Assembly (NCBI GenBank): GCA_039583645.1
Contig: JAVKSP010000001.1
Span: 12,360-76,359, forward strand
Length of the DNA stretch: 64,000 bases
Direction of reading: 5' to 3'
Origin: Solirubrobacteraceae bacterium
GTDB lineage: Bacteria; Actinomycetota; Thermoleophilia; Solirubrobacterales; Solirubrobacteraceae
Shown here: positions 35,529-54,056 of the stretch, one piece after another
Layout: each line of letters begins with the position of its first letter
Numbering within the stretch: position 1 is the first letter of the stretch
Notes under the pieces: model-generated
The model's database searches: none
Told to the model about the DNA's origin: nothing
What the model saw: the letters and a program-made list of their open reading frames with translations, nothing else
Program-made: the position numbers and the translations under genes

Positions 35529-35562
35529 GCGCGATCTCCCACGACTCGCCTGCGGTGATTGC

Positions 35563-39578: not shown

Positions 39579-39656
39579 CTTCGGCTCAGCCCGCGAATGT
39601 TTGTAGCTTGCGGGCGATGACCGGCGATTTGGGCAGGCGCAACGGGCAGCTGCGCA

Positions 39657-40124
39657 TTGGCGGCAGGAGGAGAACTATTCGTCCCAGCCGGCTTTCCGGG
39701 CGAGCGCGCGTGCGAAGCGTTCGGCGTCGTCCCCTGGGCTGCCGTAGTCATCGAGGCGACCAGAGACTTCGAGCCAATCGTCCCGGCGGCGAAGGCGAAA
39801 CCTCCAGATAGTCCGCTTCCCGGGCAGAACGCTCCGGGCGTCGAATTCACCGCGGCGGTATTCGACTTCAACCGGACAGGCGCGAACGCTCGACACTCGC
39901 ACCCGACGATCCTCTGGATCGAGATCAAACGTGAAAAGAACGTCGCCCGAAAGCAGGAGGACGCGAGGATCGGCTGTGTCTTCGACAGGAGCAACCTCGC
40001 CATCTTCGGGAACCATCGGCAAGAGTTCGTCGAGCTGGCGTCCGATGTCTTCACGGGCCTTGCCGTCAACGTTGAGCCCGAGCACTTGAAAGAGCTTCAA
40101 GCGGATGCGCTGCGCCATACGTGA
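39657..40124 (+). CDS. Hypothetical protein (start uncertain)
   Basis: High GC3 in this frame; preferred over the antisense ORF 39675-40136. Confidence 0.45.
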   Translation: MAAGGELFVPAGFPGERACEAFGVVPWAAVVIEATRDFEPIVPAAKAKPPDSPLPGQNAPGVEFTAAVFDFNRTGANARHSHPTILWIEIKREKNVARKQEDARIGCVFDRSNLAIFGNHRQEFVELASDVFTGLAVNVEPEHLKELQADALRHT

Positions 40125-40254
40125 GGCTGGCTCCACCGTGGGTGCGAATGTACAAGAGGCGCGGTTCGGCCTTCCGACGGGGCGAACCCGGAGCTGCGGG
40201 ACGACCTGTCAACGCACAACGCGGGGCCGCCCGAGACAGTCGGTCCGGGCGCTG

Positions 40255-40399
40255 CTTGCAGCGGCGTCCTCGCCTCGATCGGGCCAACGCGAGGCTGCTG
40301 GGTCTGGAACGATCTCCACAGCCTTCGCCAGCCGGCGTGGGCGCTCATGCCACAGGTCGCCGTACGCAGGGTCTGACGCCGCCGGTGGCGCCTGGTCTC
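40255..40399 (+). repeat. Long leader block (L), copy 2 of 3
   Basis: GCAGCGGCGTCCTCGCCTCGATCGGGCCAACGCGAGG...CATGCCAC; ends directly at Box A 40400. Confidence 0.85.
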
Positions 40400-40458
40400 G
40401 TCGCGAAGCGAGCGCCTCCAGTAGGACAAGCCTGGACATGAAAGCGAGCGTCCGCGAG
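40400..40458 (+). repeat. Bipartite A-26-B element (consensus copy)
   Basis: GTCGCGAAGCGAGCG, N26, AAAGCGAGCGTCCGCGAG. Confidence 0.92.
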
Positions 40459-40487
40459 CGTGCGTTTGGCCGCGCGCTGCGCTCGGG

Positions 40488-41144
40488 CTAGTCGGGCTTG
40501 TCGGAGGACGGACCCTGAGAGAAGGCCTGTCTCGATGAGGACCAGAGCGACTGCTCGCCGGCCGGAGGCTCGTCAGGAAACACTGCGACGGCCCGTGCGG
40601 CGGCATCGACCAGCTGCTGGGCATCCGTTTCGACGCGACTGAGCGCAATACCAGCCGCCGGCCATTCGCACACAAAGGCGAGCGGCCCAGCGGGCGGGAG
40701 TGGCCATACCCAGAAATCCTGACGCCAACGACCGCCGCCGCCACCACCTCCCATTGACCACAGCACTGGCTCCTCCGGCTCTCCCGCTCCCGTTCCATGC
40801 CCGCCGACATTAGTCGCCTTGCGCCGGTCGGAGAACTCGACGCCGAACTTCAGCATCTCCTCATAGTTCGAGCCTCTGCCCGGGAAGTGGTGAGGACCAT
40901 TGAGTGACGGGTCCAGGTCTTCCGCGTCAGCCAAAAGAACCCGAACCTCGAGCTCAAATCCTGTGGGGTATGCCGAGCAACGGCCAACGAACACCGCCGC
41001 CTTCGCGTTGCTGGCGATCACCAGCTCGACCGGCGCGACGCCCGGCAGCATGCCGTATGGCGGCCCCGTCCACGGAGGCGACGGCGGCCGCGGACGCGGT
41101 TCCTCTGAAGGCCGAGGGGGACGAGCAAAGAAATCGCTCGACAT
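40488..41144 (-). CDS. Hypothetical protein
   Basis: ATG 41144; AYPTGFEL, FGVEFSD, GGGGG..W...FWVWPLPPAGPLAFVCEWP. Confidence 0.72.
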   Translation of the reverse strand: MSSDFFARPPRPSEEPRPRPPSPPWTGPPYGMLPGVAPVELVIASNAKAAVFVGRCSAYPTGFELEVRVLLADAEDLDPSLNGPHHFPGRGSNYEEMLKFGVEFSDRRKATNVGGHGTGAGEPEEPVLWSMGGGGGGGRWRQDFWVWPLPPAGPLAFVCEWPAAGIALSRVETDAQQLVDAAARAVAVFPDEPPAGEQSLWSSSRQAFSQGPSSDKPD

Positions 41145-41223
41145 GCCACGACGATACAGCGCGCAGACAGCGCTGCTGCCCGGATCGGCCTCCGGCACCG
41201 CGACTCGGCGCAATAGCGGTTCC

Positions 41224-41275
41224 GTCGCAAGCAGGCGCGCGCTCGACGGCTGAACCGCTGGCGAAAGCAACCGCC
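41224..41275 (+). repeat. Bipartite element (14-nt A), 26-bp spacer
   Basis: A=GTCGCAAGCAGGCG, B=AAAGCAACCGCC. Confidence 0.62.
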
Positions 41276-41435
41276 CCAGATCCGCCTGAGTCGCTGCTCG
41301 CCGAGCATCGATCGTCGCCAATCGGACAGTAGCGTCGGCGTCGAAGCAGACCGTCTGTAACGCTGGGTTGCTTCGTGACAGAACCCGTGTAATGGAGGAT
41401 GCTGACGCGCGCTTCCGGGTTGTGTCCCAGCGGTA

Positions 41436-42146
41436 TTAGGACACACAGCGGACGAGTTGACTGCGCAACTGCGGAGCGGGGGCCCGTAGCCAGAGTACCG
41501 TCACAGCTCCCAGCCGTTGTACCTGCCCGCCCAGGCGTTTGGCGTTGCGCGCGACATATGGCTCACGCTGTTGGGCTTGGCGGGCGTTGGCATAGAAGCC
41601 GACGAAGGCGGTGATGGCGCCAGTCCTGTGGTTGGCGACGATGAGTTCTCCGGCGGGGCTCTTTCCAGCATTCGCACTCGGCGTCGGGACCGCTCCGCCG
41701 TGCACCTTGAGGCCGTCTTCGAGTAGGCATTGGCGCGCGGCGACAATCCCAGCCAGCACCGGCGGGGCGCTCGCTGCGGGCCTGGAGGATGGCAGCGAGG
41801 TACATGTCCGCGAGTGGAAGATGTCGCCCACCGTCGGATGCGACAGCGCAAACCCTTGAGCGCACAGAAACCGTCGTCCGTCACTCAAAACGAAGGTGCA
41901 CGAGCTGTGGGACGAAGCGCTCCCAGTACTGCCGCTCGCGGAACAGCTCGACGAGATGATCTGCAGGCCGGATTCGAACACGCCGGCAGCAGCAAGGGAA
42001 GGCCCCGCTACGACCACAGCGGCGAAGGCGACAATCAGGACACGGCGATGGCCTCGCCCGAGGCGCAGATACCACGGCAGGTGGGCCTGATGGCGAGCAG
42101 CGGCTCGCAGACCCCGCTCGACGTCTTCAAAGTAAGTGCTCCTCAT
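41436..42146 (-). CDS. Putative anti-sigma membrane protein
   Basis: Overlaps the ECF stop by 4 nt; YFEDVERGLRAAA N-terminus followed by a TM segment. Confidence 0.7.
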   Translation of the reverse strand: MRSTYFEDVERGLRAAARHQAHLPWYLRLGRGHRRVLIVAFAAVVVAGPSLAAAGVFESGLQIISSSCSASGSTGSASSHSSCTFVLSDGRRFLCAQGFALSHPTVGDIFHSRTCTSLPSSRPAASAPPVLAGIVAARQCLLEDGLKVHGGAVPTPSANAGKSPAGELIVANHRTGAITAFVGFYANARQAQQREPYVARNAKRLGGQVQRLGAVTVLWLRAPAPQLRSQLVRCVS

Positions 42147-42700
42147 CGCTCCTCCACCTTTGCTCTCAGGTTCTTCAGACCACGACTAACGCGCTGACGA
42201 ACGACCGATTCCGAGCATGCGAGCTCCGATGCAATCTCGTCGTAGGGCCGCTCGTCGATGACCCTGCTGACGATGGCGTTGCGTTGATCCTCCGGAAGCT
42301 CGGCAATCCGCGTGAGGACCCCGTCGTCCAGGCTGACGAGGTCCTCCACCCGCTCAAGGTCCGCGTCCGTAATCGCCAAGCGTTCCAAGCCAAGACGCTG
42401 CCGGGCAGCATTCTCAACGCGTCCGCGCCTGCGACTCTCACTGAGCTTGTTCCGCGCGATCCCCAGCAGCCATGCGAGCACCGACCCGCGCTCCGGGTGA
42501 TAGCGTCGCGCCGCGATCAAGGCCGCTGCGAACACCTCAGCCGAGAGATCGCTAGCCAGCTCTCGGTTGCGCGTCTCTCGCAGGCACCACCGCAACACCA
42601 CCGGCAAATACCGGCGATAAACGACCGCGAACGCCGCATCGTCACCCCTGGCCACCTCGGCCAGTAGCTCGCCTTCGGAACGATCAGCTACACCAGCCAC
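42143..42700 (-). CDS. ECF RNA polymerase sigma factor
   Basis: AFAVVYRRY, ASDLSAEVF, LAWLLGIARN, PYDEIASELACSESVVRQRVSRGL. Confidence 0.93.
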   Translation of the reverse strand: MAGVADRSEGELLAEVARGDDAAFAVVYRRYLPVVLRWCLRETRNRELASDLSAEVFAAALIAARRYHPERGSVLAWLLGIARNKLSESRRRGRVENAARQRLGLERLAITDADLERVEDLVSLDDGVLTRIAELPEDQRNAIVSRVIDERPYDEIASELACSESVVRQRVSRGLKNLRAKVEER

Positions 42701-43097
42701 CTAACAGAGATTGACGGAAGCCGATTCCTTGTGACAGCAGCCGAGTGGCCCTGCAGGTACCAGGCCGGCAAGGCTCATTCGCGAAACCACACCGCCAAGG
42801 GAAGACAAGCTGCCACGGATGTCAGCGAGTGCTTCGACTGGTACCCGAGTCAGACGATCACACACCGCGACCGCACCCAGGACCACGACCTGCCACCCAA
42901 GCGCCTTACCGGCATCCACTGCTAACCGTCGTAAACCCCGTAGGCACGAAGCGGACAGGCAAAGGGAAGTGAAGCGACGTTAACACCCCATCGCCGACGC
43001 CGTCACCCAAAAGGCCGGGGCACGAACGCACGAGACGGCAGCCAAGCAGGCACCCGCGCAATAGTCGTGACATGGGGTTCTGACTGCTGTCGCTCGC

Positions 43098-43150
43098 GTC
43101 GCGAAGCAAGCGTCACCATCCTGTCCCTGAGAGAAGGAAAGCGAGCGTCG
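43098..43150 (+). repeat. Bipartite A-25-B element
   Basis: A=GTCGCGAAGCAAGCG, 25-bp spacer, B=AAAGCGAGCGTCG. Confidence 0.88.
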
Positions 43151-43282
43151 CGCTCTCCGCGCATACGGGGGCTCGCACTGCTGGCGCCGAAAGGCGGGGC
43201 GCTCCCCTGCTTGACCGCGTAAAGGACTGGCGCGATCCTCGCTGCTTGCTGTTCACAAGCCCTGGCGGCTATCCCGTCAGCC

Positions 43283-43560
43283 ATGCCAATTTCCACGAGC
43301 GGGCGTGGCAGCCGACTATCCCGACGCCTATGGCCGAAGCCGCATCGCCTTCACGCGCTGAGGTTCCACGACCTCCGGCACTGCGCAGCCGCCTACACCA
43401 TTGACGCGAGCGGCGCCACCGAGGTGAGCTTGGTGCTTGTGATGAAGCGGCTCGGGCATCGCAACATCGCGACCACCGTCGATGTGTACGGTCACCTGCT
43501 CGCGCACGCGGACAAGACCGTGCCGACGCGCTCAGCGACATGTCAGAGCAGGGTCACCCG
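43283..43560 (+). pseudogene. Tyrosine recombinase/integrase C-terminal remnant
   Basis: LRFHDLRHCAA...RLGHRNIATTVDVYGHLL (box II H-x-x-R, H, Y); flanking NFHERAWQP and ADALSDM segments are in other frames; no N-terminus seen. Confidence 0.82.
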
Positions 43561-43641
43561 GCTAACGCCGACCGGCTAGCGTCAAGTGCGCGCATAGATA
43601 AAGAAGCTAGGAATCTGCGCGGTAACCTACTCCGTGGTCCA

Positions 43642-44022
43642 ATGTCTGCTCAGCAGCCGACTCCGCGAGGCGGACCGCGAAATCGAGGGCTGATCATCGG
43701 CGGGTTGCTCGCCGCGATCGCGGTGGCAATCGTCGTTGTTGCCCTCGTGGTCAGCGCGAGCGGGCATCTCAGTGATCAACAAGTCGCCAGCTGTGTGCAG
43801 AGCCAGCTAAACGGCGGTGTCCCTGTGCTCGACGGCTGTGGCACCGCTGCAGCGGCAAAGGACGCTAACGCCAAACGCTTCAACCAAGGCGTCTCCAACG
43901 TCACCTGCCACTACCAGCAGGGAGATACCTATCTGTGCACGACTGGCGCGGGCACGACATATTCCGTTGCTTACGACGGGGGGAACTCGATTTACATGCA
44001 GCTTGCGCGCAGGCGCCCGTAG
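43642..44022 (+). CDS. Membrane-anchored small Cys-containing protein
   Basis: ATG 43642; TM LIIGGLLAAIAVAIVVVALVV; four Cys. Confidence 0.7.
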   Translation: MSAQQPTPRGGPRNRGLIIGGLLAAIAVAIVVVALVVSASGHLSDQQVASCVQSQLNGGVPVLDGCGTAAAAKDANAKRFNQGVSNVTCHYQQGDTYLCTTGAGTTYSVAYDGGNSIYMQLARRRP

Positions 44023-44250
44023 GCGCGGCGTAGGCATACCGCATGGTGCGTGGGCCAGTCGTCAGCGCCGACGGTGCCATCCCGCCCCGCGACCATCGGA
44101 CCACGTGACCGATCAGCTAGCCACGGTCGCGCGGTAGTTGCGTCTCAATGTTGCGAGAGCGTGGCTCGGTAGGCGACGAGGTCGAACGCCTCCGTGGCCA
44201 CGTCGTGTTCCTGCCCAACTGACGACCCTCACACGCTGGAACGTGCGTTC

Positions 44251-44309
44251 GTCGCGAAGCGAGCGTCCCGAGGGCTGCCGATTAGAAGGCCAAAGCGAGC
44301 GTCCGCGAG
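44251..44309 (+). repeat. Bipartite A-26-B element (consensus copy)
   Basis: GTCGCGAAGCGAGCG, N26, AAAGCGAGCGTCCGCGAG; boxes identical to the 40400 copy but spacer unrelated. Confidence 0.92.
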
Positions 44310-44388
44310 AGCGCTGCACCCCACCAGAAGGGAGCTGCGTACCGTCGTGACCGCCGACTGCTGGATGTAAGCCTTTGTGGAAGCGCAG

Positions 44389-44988
44389 CTAGGGAAACCC
44401 GATGGAGAAATCGCTCTTGGTCGATTGATGCGCTCTCACCACGATGGTCTTCGTCAGCGAGCCGCCTTTCTCGAACCTCAGCACCAATGTGTACCGGCCA
44501 GGAGCGAGGAGAAATGAGTAGCGGCTCTTCACCAGTCGCCGCGTGGCCACCACTCGGCTGCGCGCGTCGCGAGCGAAAACAGTTCCCGCTATCCCGCCGC
44601 ATATGTTGGCTGGGCCACCACACGATCTCCCTGTCCCAAACACCCGAGCATCACCAACCATGCCGGAGCCGTGAAAGACGCAGGTGACATCGGCTCGGCT
44701 AATCCTGCCCGCTTGAACGCGCACCATTTGCCTACACGCCCGAGACGTCAAGAGCATGTAGGAGCCGGGCGCGAGTCGAAAGTGAAATCGCTCGCCCCGC
44801 TGCATTTGAGCATGTGCGACGACATGGCCGCGTTGCACCACCTGCACCAATCCGGGCTGGTACCCGGGGCTATACGAGCGGCCGCGATAGACGATGCCGC
44901 CTACCACGGTTCCCGTGTTTGAGCCACCGCACCCCGCTAGCACTGCCGCTACCACCAGACCGCCGAGCACGGGGGGCATTCGTCGCAT
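44389..44988 (-). CDS. Lipoprotein with two prealbumin-like beta domains
   Basis: VLAGC lipobox; FRLAPGSY and FLLAPGRY repeats; GGAGG SD. Confidence 0.75.
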   Translation of the reverse strand: MRRMPPVLGGLVVAAVLAGCGGSNTGTVVGGIVYRGRSYSPGYQPGLVQVVQRGHVVAHAQMQRGERFHFRLAPGSYMLLTSRACRQMVRVQAGRISRADVTCVFHGSGMVGDARVFGTGRSCGGPANICGGIAGTVFARDARSRVVATRRLVKSRYSFLLAPGRYTLVLRFEKGGSLTKTIVVRAHQSTKSDFSIGFP

Positions 44989-45092
44989 GTGGAATGACCT
45001 CCCTTGCGTTCAGGCTACGCCCACGCACGCGTCTCGTCACGCGCCCGGGCCCACGCGGCTATCGCGGGGTCAGCACGATCGAAAGCGGCAAG

Positions 45093-45593
45093 CTAGCGGC
45101 GTCTAACCGTCCAGCCGGCCCGGTTCCACCGCAGGCTCCAGTACGTGAATCCGTCCGGGCAACACAGCGGATCACCGCGGTCGTAATCCGGTCGCTTTTC
45201 GATCAATGTCCTGTGCTTCAACGTAAGCCGGTAGACAAGCGGCTTCCAACTGGAGTAGCTCAGATACCACCGGCCATGTCTCGGACGCAAGATCGCCAGC
45301 GGCGTTGGTGCTCCTGTCGTACAACAGCCAAAGAGCACAGTCATGTCACTGCCACCAGCTCCGGCTACATCGTGGCAATAGAGGTTGGTGATCGCCCAAG
45401 GGGTCGAGTGGGGGACCTCCACCATCTTTTGCCCCAGCGAGGTAGACGAGACCGCGTTAATGGCCGCATGCTGATCACACGCCGGACCCGACGCTGACGC
45501 CTGCGCACCTTGAGTCACAACGACAACTCCGCTCCCAGCGGCCATCATGACGCCCAGAGCGGTGAAGCTAGCGATTAGCCCGTGTCGGCGCAT
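45093..45593 (-). CDS. Secreted protein with DPLCCP motif (LppP/LprE-like)
   Basis: Signal peptide; YDRGDPLCCPDG...LRWN. Confidence 0.65.
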   Translation of the reverse strand: MRRHGLIASFTALGVMMAAGSGVVVVTQGAQASASGPACDQHAAINAVSSTSLGQKMVEVPHSTPWAITNLYCHDVAGAGGSDMTVLFGCCTTGAPTPLAILRPRHGRWYLSYSSWKPLVYRLTLKHRTLIEKRPDYDRGDPLCCPDGFTYWSLRWNRAGWTVRRR

Positions 45594-45695
45594 CTCTTCG
45601 CCCGAATCCCAGTGTATGCCGCCTGCCTAGTGCCTGAGTGCCCGGCGCACCAAGGGCGGGATCTGCCGCAGAATCGTCGACTAGATGCTTCGTGC

Positions 45696-45745
45696 GTCGC
45701 AAAGCGCGCGCAGCGCCTAGGAGATCGTGGGAGGAAAGCGAGCGT
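45696..45745 (+). repeat. Bipartite A-24-B element
   Basis: A=GTCGCAAAGCGCGCG, 24-bp spacer, B=AAAGCGAGCGT. Confidence 0.8.
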
Positions 45746-45774
45746 GAGTTCGTTACGGGCGCCACACTCAGCTT

Positions 45775-46281
45775 GTGGTCACGGTCCGGACGGCAGAGCC
45801 CACCGACGCGCTTGAAGTTGCGAGGGTGCATGTCCGATCGTGGCAGCAGGGGTACCGCGGGCTGCTGCCTGACGAGTACCTGGAGGGGTTGCGACCTGAG
45901 GATCGCGCCGCGCGCTACACCTTGGGCCGGCCTGTAGGCGACGGGCCCGAGACTGTCGTCGCGCTCGAGGGGCACACGATCCGTGGGTTCGCGACGATCG
46001 GCGGCTGCGAGGACGCGAGCGAGCGAGGGGGCGAGCTACTGGCGCTCTATGTCGATCCCGGCCACTGGGGTCGCGGCATCGGTCAGCGGCTGATGACTGA
46101 GTCCCGCCATCGGCTCATGCTGAAGGGCTTTTGCGAGGCGATCCTTTGGGTTCTCGTTGGCAACGAGCGGGCGCAGCGTTTCTACCGTGCCGACGGATGG
46201 ATACCCGACGGCGGGAGACGCCAACACGAGCTATGGGGCGTGACAGTGGAGGAAAGCCGCTACCGCCGCGCGCGGCTCTGA
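45775..46281 (+). CDS. GNAT family N-acetyltransferase
   Basis: VHVRSWQQGY, ELLALYVDPGHWGRGIGQRLM, LWVLVGNERAQRFY..GW. Confidence 0.93.
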   Translation: MVTVRTAEPTDALEVARVHVRSWQQGYRGLLPDEYLEGLRPEDRAARYTLGRPVGDGPETVVALEGHTIRGFATIGGCEDASERGGELLALYVDPGHWGRGIGQRLMTESRHRLMLKGFCEAILWVLVGNERAQRFYRADGWIPDGGRRQHELWGVTVEESRYRRARL

Positions 46282-46425
46282 GTCAGGCGCTGCCACGATC
46301 GATTGAGATCAGGCTGCCCCGCGTGGGGAGCACTGGCTCGCGTCTCAAGCAGGAGGCGAGCGATGGCAGCGGGGCTAGCGCGGCGCTCGCTAGCTGCCGT
46401 GGCTTAGCGGATCTAGGATCAGGCG

Positions 46426-47070
46426 ATGGGCGCTTGGCTGTTTGACTTGGATGGGGTGTTGGTCAATTCAGTCGCTGCCTATAGCTCGGCGTGGAGGCGT
46501 TGGGCAAAGGAGCGCGGGATCTCTGAGTCGGCGATCTGGGTGGACGCGCACGGCAAGCGTCCGGAGGACATCATCGGTCGTGTAACGTCGGGATCTGATC
46601 TCGAGTCTGGGCTGCGGGCGTTTGATGAGGCCCTCGCGGCTGCAGCCGCCGCCTGCAAGCCGATGCCGGACGCCGTTGAATGCCTCGCCACGCTCGACCC
46701 GGGCAGCTGGGCGATCGTCACATCGGGCAGACGAGGCCATGTTCGCGCCTGCCTTCAGCACTGCGGGCTGCCGGTGCCGCGGGTGCTGGTCTGCGGCGAT
46801 GAGGTATCGCGTGGCAAGCCCGATCCAGAGTGCTATTTGGCTGCAGCAGCCGGGTTGGCTGTCGAGCCCGCTGCATGCGCGGTGGTTGAGGACGCGCCGG
46901 TGGGGATCGATGCGGCGCACGCAGCTGGCATGCGCGCGATCGCGATCACGAATACGCACAGCGCAAGCGAGCTCCTTGCCGCGGACGAGATCTACAGCTC
47001 CCTTCGCGACCTCACGGCGAGTCTTCACGGAGACCGTGCTTACTCCCATCGATCGCATCGATCGGCGTGA
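46426..47070 (+). CDS. HAD-superfamily phosphatase (likely leaderless)
   Basis: FDLDGVLVNS, VTSG, KPDPECY, VEDAPVG; TAGGAT lies 6 nt before the ATG. Confidence 0.93.
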   Translation: MGAWLFDLDGVLVNSVAAYSSAWRRWAKERGISESAIWVDAHGKRPEDIIGRVTSGSDLESGLRAFDEALAAAAAACKPMPDAVECLATLDPGSWAIVTSGRRGHVRACLQHCGLPVPRVLVCGDEVSRGKPDPECYLAAAAGLAVEPAACAVVEDAPVGIDAAHAAGMRAIAITNTHSASELLAADEIYSSLRDLTASLHGDRAYSHRSHRSA

Positions 47071-47152
47071 GGCGCGCGACCCAGCGCAGGGCCTGCCGTC
47101 GCATCGTGGATGATCCATCCCGCTCGAGCCGAAGCTCTGGCCACGCGCTCGC

Positions 47153-47203
47153 GTCGCAAAGGAGTCGTCCGCTCGGCCGCCAGGGAACCAGATCGAGCGT
47201 CCG
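47153..47203 (+). repeat. Bipartite element, 22-bp spacer
   Basis: A=GTCGCAAAGGAGTCG plus TCCGCTC (22-nt near identity with the 24362 copy), B=AGATCGAGCGTCCG. Confidence 0.7.
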
Positions 47204-47257
47204 GAATGGGGGAATCAGGCTAGATGCTGGAGGGCTCGGCGAGGAGCAGCGGTCCGT

Positions 47258-47989
47258 TCAGTGATGCTCGAAGATCGTCTTGAACGACTCGTCAGCTGCC
47301 GCCAATTTGGTCGTCTTGATCAGCAGCGTGGAGTTGCGGTAGCGGTCATAGCGGGTACTACTGGCGGCTAGGGGTTGGCCGTTTACCGTCGACGCGGAGA
47401 ACTTGATCGTGCCGAAGTCCGGCACCGACGTCGTGCCGACCAGGCCGATGAAGTAGGGACCTCCTTTGAAGGATCCGGCTTGGGTGTATGTCGACTTCAC
47501 GCTCTTATGGGTCATGTCTTGGACGGAGGCGGTGTGTTTGTGCGCTGTGATGTCCTCGGTGATGACGACCTTGTCACCTGGGTGCGCCTGAAGTGAGGAT
47601 CGTCCTGTGGTGGTCCACGGGTAGTAGCGGGCCTTGCCCCTGACGCATTCGATTAACAGTCCCGCTTGGTCAAAGTCCGAGTTGCCCTGATCGGTGAACC
47701 AAAGCTGGACCTCGGCGGAGACCGCTTGCTTCTTGGTGGCGCAGTTTTTGATCTTCGGCACGACGATCGTCGTGGTTTCCGATACGCGCGCGACCCAATG
47801 CGAGGACTCCGGGCTGTAGCCCGCCAGCGAGGAGCTCGTCTGGGGCGTTGAGCCGAAACGGGCCGCCGGTATAGCGCCGCCGCCTTTCGCATTAGCGGGG
47901 CTGACAGAGGACCCTAACGCGGGCACCGCCAGTGCAAGCAACGCTGTGAGCACGAGCACCGCGCACGAACTGCCCCGACGAATGGACAT
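47258..47989 (-). CDS. Secreted peptidase G1-like protein, possibly inactive
   Basis: GGAGGA SD; IVVPKIKNC, DQAG, HPGDKV, VPDFGTIKF; lacks the EWIxE segment. Confidence 0.68.
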   Translation of the reverse strand: MSIRRGSSCAVLVLTALLALAVPALGSSVSPANAKGGGAIPAARFGSTPQTSSSLAGYSPESSHWVARVSETTTIVVPKIKNCATKKQAVSAEVQLWFTDQGNSDFDQAGLLIECVRGKARYYPWTTTGRSSLQAHPGDKVVITEDITAHKHTASVQDMTHKSVKSTYTQAGSFKGGPYFIGLVGTTSVPDFGTIKFSASTVNGQPLAASSTRYDRYRNSTLLIKTTKLAAADESFKTIFEHH

Positions 47990-48261
47990 CTGCGTCCTCC
48001 TTATCACCGCTGCACCCCCAAAGTTAGCCCGATCGGGAAGCTAACGATACCCGCGTCCCGCGGCTCGCCGCGGCGGGCACCGCAAACATAGTAAGGGCCG
48101 CTCGCGATGATTCCGAATGGCGACTAATCACCGCCACCCACAACCTCACCAAACTCCACAAACACCAGCTCGCCGCAGCCGCCTAACCCGAAACGGCCGG
48201 CCCGTGGTGCTTCAACCGACAAACCATCGGTATTGACCGCCCGCCCGCGAGTTACGCGACA

Positions 48262-48421
48262 GCCTCCGACGACGGCAGGCGTCACCGGCCGAGCGAGAAG
48301 CTGCGCCCGTCGTGAGAGCGTGGCATGAGGCGCCCACTCGGGTGAGCCAAGGCTGTCGAGATCGTTCCAGACCAGCAGTCTCGCGTTGGCCGGATCGAGG
48401 CGAGGACGCCGCTGAAAGTAG
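48262..48421 (-). repeat. Long leader block (L), copy 3 of 3, followed by an A-like box at 48246-48260
   Basis: TCAGCGGCGTCCTCGCCTCGATCCGGCCAACGCGAGACTGC...CATGCCAC; no clear B at the expected distance. Confidence 0.82.
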
Positions 48422-48674
48422 CCCAAACGAGAAGCGTAAACCGGCAATGACGGGCGCTGGCGCGACGCGAGCGCGGCGAGCCCGCGAAGCTGATCGTCGG
48501 GCGGTTCAAACGGTGTAATGATTTCGCTGCGGCCCGCAATCATGCCCACTCGCTCGCGACCGGCGAAACGTGCGGGCATATGCGCGGGAGCACGGGGACG
48601 CACCCCTGCGCTCCTACGCGCCCGTCGAGGTTCTTAAGCGCTGCCCGGGAGACCGGCCGGGCCCAAGCGTGCCG

Positions 48675-48881
48675 CTAGCCGCTCCCACCTAGTTCTTCTT
48701 CCGGTGGCGGCGTAGGATCGTCAACCGTCCACGTGTTGTCCTCTAGGTCGGGATGGCGGACGAGTTCAGCGTGGCACTGCGGGCAGGTTGAGCGTTGGTT
48801 CCGCGCATGATGCTGGCCGATTGTGTAGGTCCCCGTATCGAGAACCCGCTCCCCGCACTGAGGACACCAGAGGCCTGCCAT
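48675..48881 (-). CDS. Small zinc-ribbon protein
   Basis: WCPQCG and TCPQCH (two CxxC) in 68 aa. Confidence 0.65.
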   Translation of the reverse strand: MAGLWCPQCGERVLDTGTYTIGQHHARNQRSTCPQCHAELVRHPDLEDNTWTVDDPTPPPEEELGGSG

Positions 48882-49230
48882 GCGTCGGAATGTACTACCG
48901 GGACCTACTCACGACCCAAGCGTCCGGGCGAGTTGCCACGGGTCTAGCTCGACCGTCCAGCGCGGTGCGGGCCACTGTTCGTGGGCTCACTCGAGGAAGT
49001 TCAGGCCAGCGTCCAGCGTGACCGTGCGGTGTCCCTGGCGGATCACGGGGCAAGCGCGGTGTCTCTCGCTCTCAGGTGGGTCGACGCCGGACAAGCGACC
49101 TCACGATTGCTGCTTTGATCGACCACCACCAGTCTTAGGGAGGCCCCTGCATTTGGGGAATAGGGACAGTCAGCAACCCAGACTGAGAAAGGCATGCCGT
49201 GGTCGGCCAGCGTGACCTCGGACGCTTGCT

Positions 49231-49440
49231 GATAGGGCAAGCTTGGTATTGCCTCGACCGCCGCCGGGGGAGGGCCTCGCTTGCTTGCCCTTGTTCGAGG
49301 GCCATGGAAAGACCGGCCCCTCCCGGCGGTGGTGAGGTGCCGCGAGCGGCGACAGGACGTAGCCCCACTTGAGGGCCTTGTCTATCAGCACCCGCAACGG
49401 TACCTCCGGGTCGGGGCGCTGTCGAATGGTCCGATTGTGG
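49231..49440 (+). ncRNA. Predicted IS110 bridge RNA with target-binding and donor-binding loops
   Basis: Target loop: CGCTTGCT (49278-49285) and GGAAAG (49306-49311) between GGGAGGGCC/GGCCCCTCCC and CCCT/AGGG stems. Donor loop: ACAGGACGT (49352-49360) and CTATCAG (49382-49388). RNA ends are approximate. Confidence 0.8.
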
Positions 49441-49451
49441 GGAGGTAAGTG

Positions 49452-50765
49452 ATGGGCAATTGCGCGGGGATCGACTGGGCCTCGGAGAAGCACGAGGTAC
49501 TGATCGAGGACCCGGCCGGCGAGGAGCTGCTGGCAGGGACGTTCGCGCACGATGAGGATGGCGTGAGCGCGTTGTGCGGGGCGTTGGCGTGCTTTGACGT
49601 TGAGCTGGTGGCGATCGAGCGGCCGGATGGCCTGTTGGTCGACCGGCTGTTGGAAGCGGGGGTGCGGGTGCTGGCGCTGCATCCCAACCAGGTCAAGGCG
49701 GCGCGCGATCGCTTCCGCGCCTCGGGCGGGAAGTCCGATCAGTTCGACCGGTTCGTGCTGTGCGAGCTGGCGCGCACCGACAACCACCGCTTCCGGGTAC
49801 TGGAGCCCGACTCCGATCAGACCAAGGCGCTGCGAGCGCTGGTCAGAGCCCGGGAGGATCTGGTCGGCGCGCGGGTGGCGCTGGCCAACCAGCTACGCGC
49901 CGAGCTTGGCCGGTTCTGGCCGGGCCCGGTCGGCCTGTTCTCGGCGATCGATAGCCCGGTCTCGCTCGCGTTCCTGGCCCGCTATCCCAGCCCGGCCGAC
50001 GCGCGGGGACTAGGTCACAAGCGCATGGCCGCGTTCTTGAAGGCCCAGCACTACTGCAGCCACAAGACTGCCGGGCAGCTGCTTGAGCGACTGCGCTCGG
50101 CTCCGACCGGGCGCGCCGGCGAAGTGGAGACTCGCGCCCGACGCTCGGTCGTGGTGCGCCTGGTCGCCACGCTGCAGATCATGGTCACGCAGATCGCAGA
50201 GCTCGAGTCAGAGATCTCCCAAGCGCTCGACGCCCATCCCGACGGGGAGATCTTCCGCAGCTTCTTCCGCAGCCGCGACTCGGTGATCTGCGCCGCCACG
50301 CTGCTGGCAGAGATCGGCGACTGCCGCGCCCGGTATCCACACCGCGACGCGATCGCCGCCGACGGCGGCCAGGCCCCCGTCGCCAAGGAGTCCGGCAAAC
50401 GCAAGCACGCGCAGTTCCGCTGGGCGTGCAACAAGCGCCTGCGCAACGCGCTCTCGACCCTCGCCCAAAGCACCCGCATGTGGAACCCATGGGCCGCTGC
50501 CCGCTATGCCGCGGCCAGAGCCCGGGGGCACAACCACCGCCGCGCATTACGCACCCTAGGCCGTGCCTGGAGCCGCATCATCTGGCGCTGCTGGCACAAC
50601 CGCACCCCGTATGACCCGCAGCGCCACACCGGGCTGCAACAACACATCACCGTCACCATCCCCACCCCGTCGGGCCCCCGGCCCGACCTCACCGCCACCC
50701 AGCGAATGGCAGGCGCGGACGTCACCTCAACGGTGGCCCGGAGGGCCGAGCGCGCCAGCGCTTGA
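49452..50765 (+). CDS. IS110 family DEDD recombinase/transposase
   Basis: GIDWAS, VAIER, KSDQFD (RuvC-like DEDD), ATLLAEIG, APVAKESGK; GGGAGGT SD. Confidence 0.95.
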   Translation: MGNCAGIDWASEKHEVLIEDPAGEELLAGTFAHDEDGVSALCGALACFDVELVAIERPDGLLVDRLLEAGVRVLALHPNQVKAARDRFRASGGKSDQFDRFVLCELARTDNHRFRVLEPDSDQTKALRALVRAREDLVGARVALANQLRAELGRFWPGPVGLFSAIDSPVSLAFLARYPSPADARGLGHKRMAAFLKAQHYCSHKTAGQLLERLRSAPTGRAGEVETRARRSVVVRLVATLQIMVTQIAELESEISQALDAHPDGEIFRSFFRSRDSVICAATLLAEIGDCRARYPHRDAIAADGGQAPVAKESGKRKHAQFRWACNKRLRNALSTLAQSTRMWNPWAAARYAAARARGHNHRRALRTLGRAWSRIIWRCWHNRTPYDPQRHTGLQQHITVTIPTPSGPRPDLTATQRMAGADVTSTVARRAERASA

Positions 50766-50910
50766 CGGCAAGCCGCCAGTCGCTAAACACCCCCGACCTT
50801 GACACAGGACGTCTTTCCGCGCACGCGCGAGCGATGCGGTCCTGCCGACAATCGGCGCAGCTCTTGCCATGGTCGCGGCGGGCACGCCCGCAAGGTGGAC
50901 GACCGCGACC

Positions 50911-51201
50911 TCAGGCAACCCCCTCGACGGCAACCATGTTGAGACGCGCGGCGCCCTCACGGAGGCGCTTGGCCTCCTCGTAATCCGGTGAGGCGTAGAA
51001 CCGCTTGGCGGCGTCGAGGTTCTTGAACTCAAGCACCACAAGCCGACGAGGGTTCCAATCGCCCTCGAGTACGGCAATCTCGCCGCCCCGGACTACGAAC
51101 CTGCCTCCCCCGGCCGCGACGGCGCCCGGAGAAGCCGCCTTGTAGTGCTCGTACTGGTCGGGGTCGTGGATGTCGGTCTCGACGATGATAAATGCGGACA
51201 T
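50911..51201 (-). CDS. DUF1330 domain protein
   Basis: AYIIV-type start, GGRFVVRGG..LEG.W.P.RLVVLEF.....FYASPDY. Confidence 0.9.
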   Translation of the reverse strand: MSAFIIVETDIHDPDQYEHYKAASPGAVAAGGGRFVVRGGEIAVLEGDWNPRRLVVLEFKNLDAAKRFYASPDYEEAKRLREGAARLNMVAVEGVA

Positions 51202-51241
51202 ATGCGCTCCTATGGGCGGGGTCGAGAGATCTTCTGATCAT

Positions 51242-51294
51242 GCCGCCTGCTTTCACAAAGAGCGCCCGCCTGGAGGTCGCTTTCGCAATGCGAC
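51242..51294 (-). repeat. Bipartite A-26-B element
   Basis: A=GTCGCATTGCGAAAG, 26-bp spacer, B=AAAGCAGGCGGC. Confidence 0.7.
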
Positions 51295-51406
51295 GTATCC
51301 GCCTTGACGGGCATGGCGCCTTCTCGTTTCGCCCGATGGAGCTCGGCGGTCTCTCGTTCTTGGACGAACTCGACGGGGTCGTGGCCGCCGTCCGTGCTGG
51401 TCGCCG

Positions 51407-52341
51407 ATGAACCCTGAGGAGAGGATCTGGGTCGCGCTGCGGGGTGCGCTCGTGACGCGCGCGCTCGCCCTGGCCGCCGACCTGCGCGTTGCGCAGGCGC
51501 TGGCGGCCGGCCCGCGGAGCATTCACGAGCTCGCGCGCCGGTGCGGCGCCGACAGCGACACGCTGTACCGGGTGCTGCGAGCGCTCGCGAGCGATGGCAT
51601 CTTCGAGGAGGCCGAGCCGGGCATTTTTGGCAACAGCGCCGCCTCGCAGGTGCTGGCGCGCGACGGCTGGGATGACTTCGCCCACCTTTTCGGCGGCGTC
51701 TGGCTGCGAGCGGTCGCGGCGCTAGACGCGAGCGGCGAGCCGTCGTTCCCGCGCATCCACGGCAGCGAGCTCTGGGCGTGGTTCGCGGCGCACCCGCACG
51801 AGCGCGCCGCCTTCGATCGTGCGATGGCGCAGGGCTGGCAGAACCGCCTCGAGCGGCTCGAGAGCGTCGAGTGGCGCGGCGATGAGCTGGTCGTCGACGT
51901 CGGCGGTGACAACGGCTCGCTGCTTCTCGCGCTGCTGCAGCGTCACCCGCGGATGCGCGGCGTCGTCTTCGACCTGCCCGAGACGGTGCGCGACGAGGAG
52001 GCGCTCGGCGACCGCTGTGAGTTCGCCGAGGGCAGCTTCTTCGAGTCGGTGCCGCAGGGCGACGCCCACCTGCTCTCGACGATCCTCCACGACTGGGACG
52101 ACCGCTCGGCACGGCGGATTCTGGAGACGGTCCGTGCGGCGGCGGGTGAGCGGCTGATCGTGCTGGAAACGTGATCGAGCCCGGCAACGCCCCCGACGAC
52201 GGGAAATGGCTGGACCTGCTGATGCTCGCGCTCGCCGGCGGACGCGAACGCACGGAGGAGCAGTGGCGGGCGCTGCTCGGCGACACGGGCTGGCAGCCGA
52301 CGCGCATCGGCCGAGGGGTGATCGAGGCTCAGCCGGCGTAG
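51407..52341 (+). pseudogene. O-methyltransferase (dimerisation plus SAM domain), apparent 1-nt deletion near 52170
   Basis: LYRVLRALAS.GIF, VVDVGG, VFDLP, GSFF, ILHDWDD; the C-terminus VIEPGN...KWLDLLML..GGRERT is in the adjacent frame. Confidence 0.82.
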
Positions 52342-52680
52342 CGCCAGTGCGCGGGAACCGCGACGCTCGCTTTTGCAGACCCAGCGACTACGAAGCGGAC
52401 ATTGAAATGACTCTTGTTTTGACCGTCCGGGTTTATCCGCCGGCGATAGGCGGTTGCAAATCAACTGCCAGGGTTCTGCGACGGTGTTCTCCGGGTAGCG
52501 GTATGGATGAGGACCCCCGGTACGCGGCCTTCCTGTGCCCCTTGGAGGGTCACGTAGACGGCAGCCCCAGGCACGAAGCCTGAGCCTCCCCGACACACCG
52601 GGGGTCCACTCGCCTCGTCGCCTGGACCGGCGCTCGCGCTCGTAGGCTGCGGCTTCCGCTCTCCGTACGCAGAAAGCACG

Positions 52681-52732
52681 ACGCCCGCTTTCGTCGGCCA
52701 CACACCCACCGAGCTGGCGCTCGCCTTGCGAC
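52681..52732 (-). repeat. Bipartite A-26-B element
   Basis: A=GTCGCAAGGCGAGCG begins 12 nt after the AlkZ-like stop; 26-bp spacer; B=AAAGCGGGCGT. Confidence 0.85.
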
Positions 52733-52744
52733 GAGGGAGGGCGT

Positions 52745-53812
52745 CTACACGCCCGTGACGTGGACCTTTCGTGCCTCCGGCACCAGCCACCGTCCCAGCC
52801 GTCGCGCCTCGGCCCCCATCCGGTCGCGCGCCTTGTGCGCCAGTTCAAGGTGTGCGGTGATCTCGATCTCGACCGGGTCGCCTGCGCGCCGCCAAAGCCA
52901 GCTGGCGACGATCCGGCCATCGACCGTGACCGTCTGGTCGCCGGCGAGCCCCAGCTTCAGCGCTTGGATCTCCGGGGCCATGATCCGGTCACGGTCGGCG
53001 TGGGCGAGCGTTGCCTGGTCCCAGCGCGAGAGAAACCGCACCGGCATCCGAGTCGACGCGGGCGGCAGCGGGAGGTTGGGCAGGTCGAGGAGCTCGACGC
53101 CCTTCTCGTCGCGGAAGCAGACAGTCGACACGCGCGCCAGCGCCTGAGCGAAGTCGGCTTGGGGTACGCCGGCCCACGCCGCGATGTCACGCCGGCTGGC
53201 GGGCCCGAAGGCCGCCAAGTAGCGCTTGAGCGCGATCGTTGCGGCGTCAGCGGGGCTCGGCAACGGCCGCGGATCGACGCCGAACCGCGGCCGGCGGCGA
53301 TCGTCCCACGCGCCGGCCGGCGGCAGCTGCACTAGCGGCAAGAGGGTGCGGGCGAACATGATCGGTCCATAGTCGGTGTCGGGGACGCCGTCGTAGCGCT
53401 GCACGCGCTCGCGAATCTCGTCATTGGCCCGCGCCTTGGCCTCGAACCATCCCTCCAGCTCGGCGGTGACCTGCGCGAGGTCAAGCTGCGCGTGGGCCTT
53501 GTGCAGCCGGCGGAGCCGCGGCTGCCTGGCGAGCTGGTGATACGCCGGGTACTCGTCCGCCGCCGTGATGTGCAGGGTCGTTCGCATCAGCGTCGACTTA
53601 ACTGCCTTACGTGCATGGAGCGCCACCTCGAGCTGATCACGGGTGAAGCCCGCGAGCCGTGCCGCGAGCGCGATGTATGGCGCCCGCGGCTCCTGGCCCT
53701 GCAGCGGAGTGAGCCGGCGGAGCGCCTCGACCGGATCGAGCCGCTGACGGTCGAGCAACATCTGCCTGGCCGCGAGCGCGGCCGTAAGTTCGCGCCGCGT
53801 GAGAGTACGCAT
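52745..53812 (-). CDS. AlkZ/YcaQ-family (HTH_42) DNA glycosylase-like protein
   Basis: RQMLL, PLQGQ (QxQ), LMRTTLH, RYLAAFGPASRRDIAAWAG, FLSRWD. Confidence 0.88.
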   Translation of the reverse strand: MRTLTRRELTAALAARQMLLDRQRLDPVEALRRLTPLQGQEPRAPYIALAARLAGFTRDQLEVALHARKAVKSTLMRTTLHITAADEYPAYHQLARQPRLRRLHKAHAQLDLAQVTAELEGWFEAKARANDEIRERVQRYDGVPDTDYGPIMFARTLLPLVQLPPAGAWDDRRRPRFGVDPRPLPSPADAATIALKRYLAAFGPASRRDIAAWAGVPQADFAQALARVSTVCFRDEKGVELLDLPNLPLPPASTRMPVRFLSRWDQATLAHADRDRIMAPEIQALKLGLAGDQTVTVDGRIVASWLWRRAGDPVEIEITAHLELAHKARDRMGAEARRLGRWLVPEARKVHVTGV

Positions 53813-53836
53813 GCCTGCAATTTGCCACCCCGCTCA

Positions 53837-53890
53837 GGACGCTCGCTTCCACGGCTCGCGACAGCCGTCGCCTTACGCCTGCTTCGCGAC
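53837..53890 (-). repeat. Bipartite A-26-B element
   Basis: A=GTCGCGAAGCAGGCG, 26-bp spacer, B=GAAGCGAGCGTCC. Confidence 0.85.
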
Positions 53891-54056
53891 GGACGCGATC
53901 GCCAGCCACAGCGCCGCACGGGTGAGCGCTTCGGCGACGAGGCGAGCGCCCGCGAGCTGAGGCTTATCCGGCCGCTTTCACTGCCAACGGCTTGGCTGAT
54001 GTCTACGTCGGTGGTAGGCACCTCGCGCTGCGCCGGAGCCCCACCGTTGAGTCGTC

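What the first reader, a model, noticed from the sequence alone, without database searches (positions are those of the whole stretch)
49219..50859. IS110 whose bridge RNA appears programmed against Box B
Seen: removing 49231-50814 restores a 26-bp sequence identical to the reverse complement of 39222-39247. The non-coding left end has target guides CGCTTGCT and GGAAAG and donor guides ACAGGACGT and CTATCAG inside stem-loops. The 2 nt after each right guide match the opposite partner: GGAAAG-AC is the reverse complement of the right junction GTCTTTCC, and CTATCAG-CA is the reverse complement of the left junction TGCTGATAG. Established: IS621-type bridge RNAs use this layout with handshake guides, and some IS110/IS1111 elements target REP or attC repeats. 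Inference: the element exploits Box B as a recurrent landing pad, which independently supports Box B being real. Five unoccupied ACGCT(C/T)GCTTTCC sites remain near 14771, 21503, 39232, 43136 and 45733.
Basis: partly seen in the sequence, partly recalled or inferred. Interest (0 to 1): 0.85.

Follow-up and report, generated by a model that had tools for sequence, protein, structure and literature searches.

The report
IS110 element with Box-B-targeting bridge RNA
This is an ordinary but very clean example of an RNA-guided jumping gene (IS110 family), and its guide RNA spells out the short repeated intergenic sequence (Box B) into which it has inserted.

Summary
Window 49231-50814 is a 1,584-bp IS110-group insertion sequence bounded by a CT core. 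It has an intact DEDD/Ser recombinase gene (49449-50765) and a 218-bp non-coding left end. That left end folds into the two-loop architecture of an IS621-type bridge RNA.

I collected about 90 related elements from Solirubrobacterales genomes and soil metagenomes. Across them the stems show compensatory changes, and each element's guides match its own flanks far better than other elements' flanks (0 of 20,000 shuffles).

Box B is one half of a roughly 65-nt bipartite repeat with 36 copies in this genome, 21 of them in the window. About half of the independent insertions of the close clade lie at the same position of such repeats. In a congeneric genome the guide tracks that host's Box B variant.

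In this genome only one Box B is occupied. The second, 80%-identical copy disrupts a tyrosine recombinase gene. Transcription and activity remain untested.

This is a new member of a known kind. Targeting of repeats by IS110/IS1111 elements is already documented. Interest is moderate to low.

The parts
49222..49230 (+). Left half of the interrupted Box B (ACGCTTG + core CT). This is the left target.
   Evidence: It matches the LTG 8/8.
49231..50814 (+). IS110-group insertion sequence, 1,584 bp. No terminal inverted repeats. CT core at both junctions.
49231..49448 (+). Non-coding left end (218 bp). It starts with the right-donor sequence GATAG.
49252..49416 (+). Predicted bridge RNA of about 165 nt: a closing helix, a target-binding loop arm and a donor-binding loop arm.
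   Evidence: 42 pairs, 16 with compensatory changes, 96.8% of cells paired, z = -4.4.
49278..49285 (+). Left target guide CGCTTGCT (includes the core).
49306..49313 (+). Right target guide GGAAAG plus handshake guide AC. AC pairs with donor positions 6-7, GT.
49352..49360 (+). Left donor guide ACAGGACGT, identical to right-end bases 50804-50812.
49382..49390 (+). Right donor guide CTATCAG plus handshake guide CA. CA pairs with target positions 6-7, TG.
   Evidence: It covaries with the left-end terminus.
49449..50765 (+). IS110 recombinase gene, 438 aa from the GTG. The likelier start is ATG 49452, which lies 7 nt after GGAGG. Catalytic residues D9, E57, D97, D100 and S315 are present.
50766..50814 (+). 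Right end (49 bp) with the invariant TTGACA (50799-50804), the left donor ACAGGACGT (50804-50812) and core CT.
50815..50849 (+). Right half of the interrupted site: TTCC (right target), a spacer, and a degenerate Box A (TGCCGAC, 50843-49).
39185..39247 (+). Closest unoccupied paralogue of the target site. It is the only other site with the T variant, ACGCTTGCTTTCC.
17782..53902 (.). Cluster of 21 bipartite Box A/Box B repeats, the pool of potential targets. Exact free Box B sites are at 14771, 21503, 39232, 43136 and 45733.

Best explanation
Window 49231-50814 is an intact IS110-group insertion sequence of a Solirubrobacterales bacterium. Its left non-coding end encodes a bridge RNA of about 165 nt with two internal loops.

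The target-binding loop carries CGCUUGCU, which pairs with the bottom strand of the left target, and GGAAAG, which pairs with the top strand of the right target. Together they specify CGCTTG-CT-TTCC, the core of Box B. The donor-binding loop carries ACAGGACGU and CUAUCAG, which specify the element's own joined ends (..ACAGGACGT-CT-GATAG..). The two 2-nt handshake guides (AC and CA) are complementary to the non-cognate partners, as needed for strand exchange.

By homology with IS621 the inferred pathway is as follows. The element excises as a circle. The RE-LE junction assembles a promoter (TTGACA, 17 nt, CAAGCT) that fires just upstream of the RNA fold. A recombinase tetramer bound to the RNA then synapses the circle junction with a Box B copy and exchanges strands at CT through a phosphoserine intermediate.

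What is shown here: the element's anatomy, the covariation-supported RNA fold, guide/flank covariation across about 90 relatives, and repeated use of Box B/Box A-type repeats by this clade. What is inferred: transcription, circle formation and catalysis.
For: - Protein identity. PF01548 scores 1e-31 and PF02371 1e-12. NF033542, 'IS110 family RNA-guided transposase', scores 156.5 bits against a 140 cut-off. IS621 (8WT6) is the only PDB hit, and the catalytic D9/E57/D97/D100/S315 align.
- RNA fold. Across 37 distinct relatives the consensus has 42 pairs, 16 with compensatory changes. 96.8% of cells are paired against 36-45% when partners are slid, and 0 of 500 shuffles reach the covariation score. 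For the single sequence, MFE is -89.9 kcal/mol and z = -4.4.
- Guide-to-own-flank matching. LTG gives 195/287 matches against 119.5 +/- 7.6 shuffled. RTG gives 131/174 against 63.4 +/- 7.4. Both are 0 of 20,000, and the close clade alone gives the same result. Another 49 metagenomic copies show many 8/8 LTG matches.
- Donor guide. The RDG covaries with the left-end terminus: GATAG/CTATC, CATAG/CTATG, CATTG/CAATG, CACTG/CAGTG.
- Handshake guides. The DBL handshake position 7 matches the target in 40 of 41 elements, including 4 G-to-C switches. The TBL handshake AC faces donor GT in 41 of 41.
- Junction motif. TTGACA-17-NANNNT is invariant in 29 of 29 circle junctions.
- Target. Box B is a real repeat. 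Close-clade insertions recur in such repeats, and G155's guide fits G155's Box B variant.
- Published rules. The IS621 rules for guides, the CT core, the junction promoter and handshake guides are in PMC11208160 and PMC11208158.
Against: - There is no RNA or read evidence.
- Rfam 15 has no matching family.
- Only one copy of this exact element exists in the genome, and no identical copy was found elsewhere. Recent activity is therefore not shown.
- The conserved TTGACA and CAACCT hexamers overlap a subterminal inverted repeat (GGTTGAC/GTCAACC). Their conservation may not reflect a promoter.
- The LDG is followed by AG, not CT, so it does not cover the core.
- The second genomic copy sits at a site with one mismatch in each target guide, inside a gene.
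Confidence: 0.88

Rival explanations
1. The element is a correctly built but now silent fossil. The guides still match because it has not moved or decayed since insertion, and it no longer uses Box B as a landing pad.
For: There is a single copy at 100% identity in the genome. Five perfect or wobble-compatible Box B sites remain empty. No identical copy was found in the public collections. No promoter-like site is present in the integrated state.
Against: The ORF is open with all five catalytic residues. LTG matches 8/8, and RTG matches the core plus 4 nt. Both handshake dinucleotides fit. The fold is intact. Low copy number is normal for IS110 elements, whose promoter forms only in the circle (PMC11208160).
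Confidence: 0.15
2. The left-end structure is only a cis-acting 5' leader that controls transposase expression. Target choice would be made by the protein reading DNA, and the guide-like matches would be by-products.
For: The fold sits directly upstream of the ribosome-binding site and start codon. Small RNAs that modulate expression were once proposed for IS110 members (mentioned in PMC11208160). No transcript data exist here.
Against: The loop sequences change together with each element's flanks, while the stems keep pairing through compensatory changes. A protein-only reader would not produce element-specific complementarity on two strands plus handshake covariation. The homologous IS621 system is experimentally RNA-guided.
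Confidence: 0.03
3. The match to Box B is incidental. The element targets a generic 12-bp word, and Box B has no special status as its landing pad.
For: The second copy in this genome, and several relatives (L008, L077, L093), sit at near-cognate sites in apparent coding sequence. Only one Box B is occupied here.
Against: All six genomic matches to CGCTYGCTTTCC lie in Box B copies, against about 1 match expected by chance. Seven of 28 independent close-clade sites have a Box A-like motif 24-48 nt downstream, against 6.5% in controls (p = 0.002). Four more sites abut Box A itself, and two more have a degenerate Box A. In G155, 5 of 5 free matches to the programmed target are bipartite repeats.
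Confidence: 0.05

Closest known systems
IS621 and other IS110-group bridge-RNA elements (Durrant et al. 2024, PMC11208160; Hiraizumi et al. 2024, PMC11208158)
   Same: - DEDD RuvC-like domain plus a Tnp domain with a catalytic Ser.
- Long left end encoding a two-loop RNA 5' of the gene.
- LTG/RTG/LDG/RDG layout and a CT core.
- 2-nt handshake guides, with covariation mainly at position 7.
- A -35 hexamer in the right end that can only meet a -10 after circularisation.
- A natural target that is an intergenic repeat.
   Different: - Only distant protein similarity (E = 9e-6 to 8WT6).
- 438 aa against 326 aa, with a low-complexity C-terminal tail.
- Host is a Thermoleophilia actinobacterium with 68% G+C.
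- The target is a bipartite 65-nt repeat rather than an E. coli REP.
- The LDG does not cover the core.
- Nothing here has been tested experimentally.
ISPpu10 of Pseudomonas putida (bioRxiv 10.64898/2026.03.19.712850) and ISPa11 (a REP-targeting IS1111 member, cited in PMC11187229)
   Same: These are RNA-guided IS110/IS1111 elements whose copies all land in copies of one conserved intergenic repeat that can form a hairpin.
   Different: ISPpu10 is reported to need a target DNA stem-loop in addition to pairing. I did not find a consensus hairpin for the Box A/B site, although individual copies have inverted repeats. ISPa11 carries its RNA in the right end.
IS1111-attC group (ISKpn4, ISPst6; Tetu & Holmes 2008, Post & Hall 2009, cited in PMC11187229)
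   Same: An insertion sequence specialised on a repeat that separates small accessory-gene cassettes. Insertion occurs at a fixed position and in a fixed orientation within the repeat.
   Different: Those elements belong to the IS1111 group, with the RNA 3' of the gene, and they target genuine integron attC sites. Here the RNA is 5' of the gene. The repeat has no R''/R' (RYYYAAC/GTTRRRY) boxes, no integron integrase lies in the window, and the repeats occur in both orientations.
IS900/IS901/IS116-type actinobacterial IS110 members. Their insertion next to host RBS/start codons and the host-expression-dependent 'hed' ORF are from my own knowledge; hed is described in PMC8141618.
   Same: The more distant relatives of this element (16 loci) insert antisense exactly at the start codon of host genes. 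This resembles the start-site preference of IS900-type elements.
   Different: The window element and its close clade have moved away from gene starts to the Box B/Box A repeat. The window element's left end (GATAG) no longer regenerates an ATG.

Membership tests
IS110 family, IS110 group (bridge-RNA elements) | N-terminal DEDD RuvC-like transposase domain | tested here: met
   PF01548 E = 8.9e-32 over residues 6-158. D9, E57, D97 and D100 align with IS621 D11/E60/D102/D105.
IS110 family, IS110 group (bridge-RNA elements) | C-terminal Tnp domain with a conserved catalytic serine | tested here: met
   PF02371 E = 1.2e-12. The ESG motif with S315 aligns to IS621 S241. NF033542 scores above its curated cut-off.
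IS110 family, IS110 group (bridge-RNA elements) | No terminal inverted repeats or long target duplication, with ends defined by a shared core dinucleotide | tested here: met
   CT is present at both junctions, and removing the element restores an uninterrupted Box B. The same CT core is seen in 40 of 41 relatives; L017 has CC.
IS110 family, IS110 group (bridge-RNA elements) | Long non-coding left end and short right end, with the RNA 5' of the gene | tested here: met
   The left end is 218 bp and the right end 49 bp.
IS110 family, IS110 group (bridge-RNA elements) | Conserved two-internal-loop RNA fold supported by covariation | tested here: met
   16 pairs with compensatory changes, and 0 of 500 shuffles reach the covariation score.
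IS110 family, IS110 group (bridge-RNA elements) | Loop strands complementary to the target (both strands) and to the element's joined ends | tested here: met
   Window element: LTG 8/8, RTG core plus 4 nt, LDG 9/9, RDG 7/7. Family-wide: 0 of 20,000 shuffles. Further copies.
IS110 family, IS110 group (bridge-RNA elements) | Handshake guides complementary to the non-cognate DNA | tested here: met
   40 of 41 at DBL position 7, with 4 covarying switches, and 41 of 41 for the TBL. In the window element both dinucleotides fit.
IS110 family, IS110 group (bridge-RNA elements) | The RNA is transcribed, binds the recombinase and directs recombination | not testable with these tools
Only a junction promoter-like motif can be shown.
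Repeat-targeting IS (REP/attC-type landing pads) | Independent insertions at the same position of a multi-copy host repeat | tested here: met
   There is one insertion in this genome. About 13 of 28 close-clade insertions across genomes and metagenomes lie in Box B or Box A halves. G155 has two insertions plus 5 free bipartite sites.
IS1111-attC group / integron attC targeting | RNA in the right end, and a target that is an integron attC site (R''/R' boxes, IntI nearby) | tested here: not met
   The RNA is in the left end. The site alignment shows no GTTRRRY/RYYYAAC boxes. There is no full tyrosine recombinase in the window.

The most novel reading that the evidence does not exclude
This IS110 lineage may be a specialised parasite that has co-diversified with a genus-wide bipartite repeat (Box A - about 30 nt - Box B). 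In this genome that repeat separates single-gene accessory cassettes. Sub-lineages are programmed for either half-site at the same relative position (GAA(A)G^CGAGCG), and their guides follow each host's variant of the repeat. If the repeat proves to be the recombination site of an undescribed, integron-like cassette system of Thermoleophilia, this would be an IS110-group counterpart of the IS1111-attC elements. It would also provide a natural series of bridge-RNA retargeting events, from gene start codons to cassette boundaries.
Probability: 0.2. Interest if true: 0.55.

Novelty: new member of a known kind. Interest (0 to 1): 0.33.

Why it matters
The mechanism is not new. IS110 bridge RNAs, handshake guides and repeat targeting have been published since 2024, and NCBI already names the protein family 'RNA-guided transposase'.

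The value here lies elsewhere:
- It is a textbook-clean natural example from a poorly studied, high-G+C actinobacterial order.
- About 90 relatives form a natural reprogramming series. It includes a core change (CC in L017) and guide changes that track host-specific variants of the target repeat. Such a series could inform guide-design rules for bridge recombinases in G+C-rich DNA.
- It gives independent evidence that the Box A/Box B repeat is a conserved, position-specific feature of these genomes, which bears on the separate question of what that repeat array is.

Tried and rejected
- Rfam found nothing in 48800-51200 at E <= 1. At gathering thresholds the whole window gave only a tRNA at 9581-9654. 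No curated bridge-RNA family matched, and the Box A/B sites match no known RNA.
- Exact-protein look-ups with both possible starts found nothing. An exact search for the window element's own target-binding loop in metagenome contigs also found nothing. No second insertion of this exact element is therefore known.
- I searched the own genome for tyrosine recombinases to test an integron reading of the array. There is none in the window apart from a weak C-terminal fragment at about 43352-43501.
- RNAalifold on the 31 best-aligned Box A/B sites gave no consensus structure on either strand. This may be because the variable spacers misalign.
- The exact 12-mer GAAAGCGAGCGT is enriched only in this genome among 151 family genomes. 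My first idea, that the identical Box B is shared across the family, was wrong. Relatives have their own variants.
- My first loose regex for bipartite sites gave 512 mostly spurious hits and was discarded. I replaced it with a profile built from seed sites.
- I considered that Box B could be a remnant of the IS ends. I rejected this because the site shares no sequence with the left- or right-end termini.
Full report
**1. The observation**

Window 49100-51000 shows ...CGGACGCTTGCT|GATAGGGCAAGC... on the left and ...TTGACACAGGACGTCT|TTCCGCGCACGCGC... on the right. Deleting 49231-50814 gives CGGACGCTTGCTTTCCGCGCACGCGC. A script confirmed that this equals the reverse complement of 39222-39247. 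Both junctions end in CT, so the element is bounded by a 2-nt core.

With one mismatch allowed there are nine matches against 0.24 expected. The guide-like strings are at 49278-85, 49306-13, 49352-60 and 49382-90.

**2. What the element is**

The 438-aa ORF at 49449-50765 has the two IS110 domains, PF01548 (9e-32) and PF02371 (1e-12). It passes the curated cut-off of NCBIfam NF033542, 'IS110 family RNA-guided transposase'. Its only solved relative is the IS621 recombinase 8WT6. D9, E57, D97, D100 and S315 occupy the positions of the IS621 catalytic residues D11, E60, D102, D105 and S241 (residue roles from PMC11208158).

The left non-coding end is 218 bp and the right end 49 bp. This is the IS110-group arrangement, in which the bridge RNA lies 5' of the gene (PMC11208160). 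Titles of related records place the organism in the Solirubrobacterales. The genome is a 3.0-Mb, 176-contig assembly with 68.5% G+C.

**3. Relatives and the RNA fold**

I collected related copies from four sources:
- a second copy in this genome, 80% identical, on contig C34
- seven loci from species-representative genomes
- about 40 loci from 31 of 401 genomes of the order
- 49 copies from soil and other metagenomes

An alignment of 37 distinct left ends (A1) gives an RNAalifold consensus with a closing helix and two arms. Each arm has an internal loop closed by a short apical hairpin.

Of 42 pairs, 16 show compensatory changes. 96.8% of cells are paired, against 36-45% when the 3' partners are slid by 1-3 columns. 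No shuffle out of 500 reaches the observed covariation score. The window sequence alone folds at -89.9 kcal/mol, z = -4.4. The four guide strings lie in the two internal loops, as in IS621.

**4. Do the loops really read the flanks?**

For 41 elements I read the guides from fixed alignment columns and found the element ends independently.

| Guide segment | Matches to own flank | Shuffled expectation | Shuffles reaching observed |
|---|---|---|---|
| 7 nt 5' of the core in the left target guide | 195 of 287 | 119.5 +/- 7.6 | 0 of 20,000 |
| 6 nt 3' of the core in the right target guide | 131 of 174 | 63.4 +/- 7.4 | 0 of 20,000 |

Both results hold within the close clade alone.

Examples of left target guide (LTG) against left flank:
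- CGCTTGCT / CGCTTGCT (window)
- CGATCGCT / CGATCGCT (L003, L008)
- GACCTGC / GACCTGC (L007, L011)
- CTTCTGCT / CTTCTGCT (L013)
- CGATTCCT / CGAGTCCT (L014)
- CGAGACCT / CGAGACCC (L017)

Examples of right target guide (RTG) against right flank:
- TCAAC / TCAAC (L004)
- GCATT / GCATT (L017)
- CATCTG / CATCTG (L036)

The right donor guide changes together with the first bases of the left end: GATAG/CTATC, CATAG/CTATG, CATTG/CAATG, CACTG/CAGTG. The metagenomic copies add many further 8/8 left-guide matches.

The donor-loop handshake position 7 matches the target in 40 of 41 elements. That count includes four elements where both have switched from G to C. The target-loop handshake AC faces donor GT in all 41. 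This is the behaviour described for IS621, where covariation is concentrated at position 7. In the window element both bases of both handshake guides fit.

**5. Likely mechanism**

By homology with IS621, the element should excise as a circle. In all 29 elements with both ends, the joined RE-LE reads TTGACA, then 17 nt that include the core, then NANNNT. A2 and T6 of that second hexamer are invariant.

In the window element this is TTGACA (50799-50804), 17 nt, then CAAGCT (49238-49243). That would place the transcription start just before the first helix at 49252. In the integrated state the corresponding -35 position reads ACCTCG, and the scan finds no promoter.

This promoter is an inference. 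The two hexamers also form part of a subterminal inverted repeat (GGTTGAC/GTCAACC), which could explain their conservation on its own.

**6. What Box B is**

Box B is one half of a bipartite repeat. Read on the opposite strand, the repeat is ..GCTCGC-GTCGCGAA-GCGAGCGTC..(about 22 nt)..C-GAAA-GCGAGCGTC... It is thus two direct copies of GAA(A)GCGAGCGT about 38 nt apart.

A profile built from seed sites finds 36 copies in the genome: 21 in the window (17782-53902), 7 on C46, 5 on C8, 2 on C116 and 1 on C22. They occur in both orientations. They separate one to three small accessory genes: GNAT acetyltransferase, HAD hydrolase, nitroreductase, DUF1330, O-methyltransferase, AlkZ-like glycosylase, SnoaL-like, bestrophin-like, methyltransferases and DUFs.

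There is no Rfam match, no complete tyrosine recombinase in the window and no consensus hairpin. The accessory region starts just after a tRNA gene at 9581-9654. I cannot say what the repeat does. Another first-reader note proposes an integron-like array. The gene content fits that idea, but the mixed orientations, the lack of attC boxes and the lack of an integrase do not.

**7. Is Box B a recurrent landing pad?**

In this genome only one Box B is occupied. All six genomic matches to the programmed word CGCTYGCTTTCC are Box B copies. The C variant would still pair with the guide through G-U.

The second IS copy (C34:21987-23422) has the guides CGATCGCT and ..TGAAAG. It sits at ACGAGCGCT|TTTATCC, with one mismatch in each guide. 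That site lies inside an otherwise intact tyrosine recombinase gene of about 370 aa, at about residue 176.

The relatives give a clearer answer:
- Reconstructed empty sites of L014, L016, L040, L003 and the window hit the site profile.
- Seven of 28 independent close-clade sites have a Box A-like motif 24-48 nt downstream of the core, against 6.5% at control positions (p = 0.002).
- Four more sites (L014, L016, L080, L095) abut Box A itself. They are inserted at the equivalent position of the other half-site, GAAG^CGAGCG.
- The window and L003 have a degenerate Box A.

In the congeneric genome G155, which holds two copies (L011, L040), all five free matches to the programmed target are bipartite repeats of that genome's own variant, ACGCCTGCTTTCGTG - about 30 nt - GGCGAC. 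These lie inside a dispersed repeat of about 125 bp. The exact Box B of this genome is not shared by other family genomes.

So the clade is specialised on this repeat family, and its guides follow the local variant. The landing-pad idea is supported at the level of the lineage, and only potentially for this individual copy.

**8. Comparison with known systems, and novelty**

Every defining feature of an IS110-group bridge-RNA element that can be tested in silico is met. Only expression and activity are untested.

Targeting of host repeats is well documented:
- IS621 in REP (PMC11208160)
- ISPpu10 in a conserved intergenic hairpin repeat (bioRxiv 10.64898/2026.03.19.712850)
- ISPa11 in REP, and ISKpn4/ISPst6 in attC (PMC11187229)

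This scan has already logged many IS110 bridge-RNA findings. I therefore rate this a new member of a known kind, with moderate to low interest.

The added value is the natural retargeting series and the link to the unexplained Box A/B repeat.

**9. Seen in passing**

The more distant relatives (16 loci) almost all sit antisense between the start codon (ATG, GTG or TTG) and an AGC second codon of genuine genes, in 14 of 16 cases. In-frame GC3 is 0.8-1.0, and recognisable N-termini are present. The outward-facing left end reads ..GGGGAGG-N7-ATG|AG. It would therefore restore a ribosome-binding site and an ATG for the interrupted gene.

This recalls the start-site preference of IS900-type IS110 members (my own knowledge; hed ORF in PMC8141618). 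It suggests that the Box B-targeting clade arose by retargeting from gene starts.

Noticed in passing
G000 contig C34:21987-23422 (locus L002), outside the window: A second copy of the IS, 80% identical and 1,436 bp long with a 403-aa open frame, interrupts a tyrosine recombinase (phage-type integrase) gene at about residue 176. The gene is otherwise intact at about 370 aa. The site differs from the copy's own guides by one base in each target guide.
   Followed up: partly
Loci L019-L047 (distant clade from other Solirubrobacterales genomes): In 14 of 16 insertions the element lies antisense exactly between the start codon (ATG, GTG or TTG) and an AGC second codon of real genes. The element's left end regenerates ATG and carries GGAGG about 7 nt upstream, so the interrupted gene may keep a translation start. 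This resembles IS900-type behaviour.
   Followed up: partly
window 17782-53902, plus C46, C8, C116 and C22: A bipartite repeat of about 65 nt (Box A GTCGCGAA-GCGAGCGTC, about 22 nt, Box B GAAA-GCGAGCGTC) has 36 copies in the genome. The copies are clustered, occur in both orientations, and separate small accessory genes (GNAT, HAD, nitroreductase, DUF1330, AlkZ-like, SnoaL-like and others). Its function is unknown. It has no Rfam match and no adjacent integrase.
   Followed up: partly
window 9581-9654 (+): A tRNA gene lies immediately before the accessory, repeat-rich region. G+C drops from about 0.68 to 0.63-0.66 across roughly 8-48 kb, which suggests a genomic island boundary.
   Followed up: no
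window about 43352-43501 (+): A weak C-terminal fragment of a tyrosine recombinase (PF00589, 21.5 bits, below cut-off) lies between two Box A/B sites. It may be a remnant integrase.
   Followed up: no
locus L017 (G146:C4): One relative uses a CC core instead of CT. Its right end, left-flank junction, RTG and RDG all read CC/GG, while its LTG still reads CT. This looks like a natural core reprogramming.
   Followed up: no
loci L052, L054 and L055 (G155): In a congeneric genome the bipartite site is embedded in a near-identical repeat of about 125 bp. The repeat is dispersed over hundreds of kilobases rather than arrayed, so the repeat family can behave like a REP/MITE-type element.
   Followed up: partly
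loci L013, L020 and L024: The right flank begins with CATAG(G), the same bases as the element's own left end. This suggests insertion next to a left-end remnant, or donor-like sites being used as targets.
   Followed up: no
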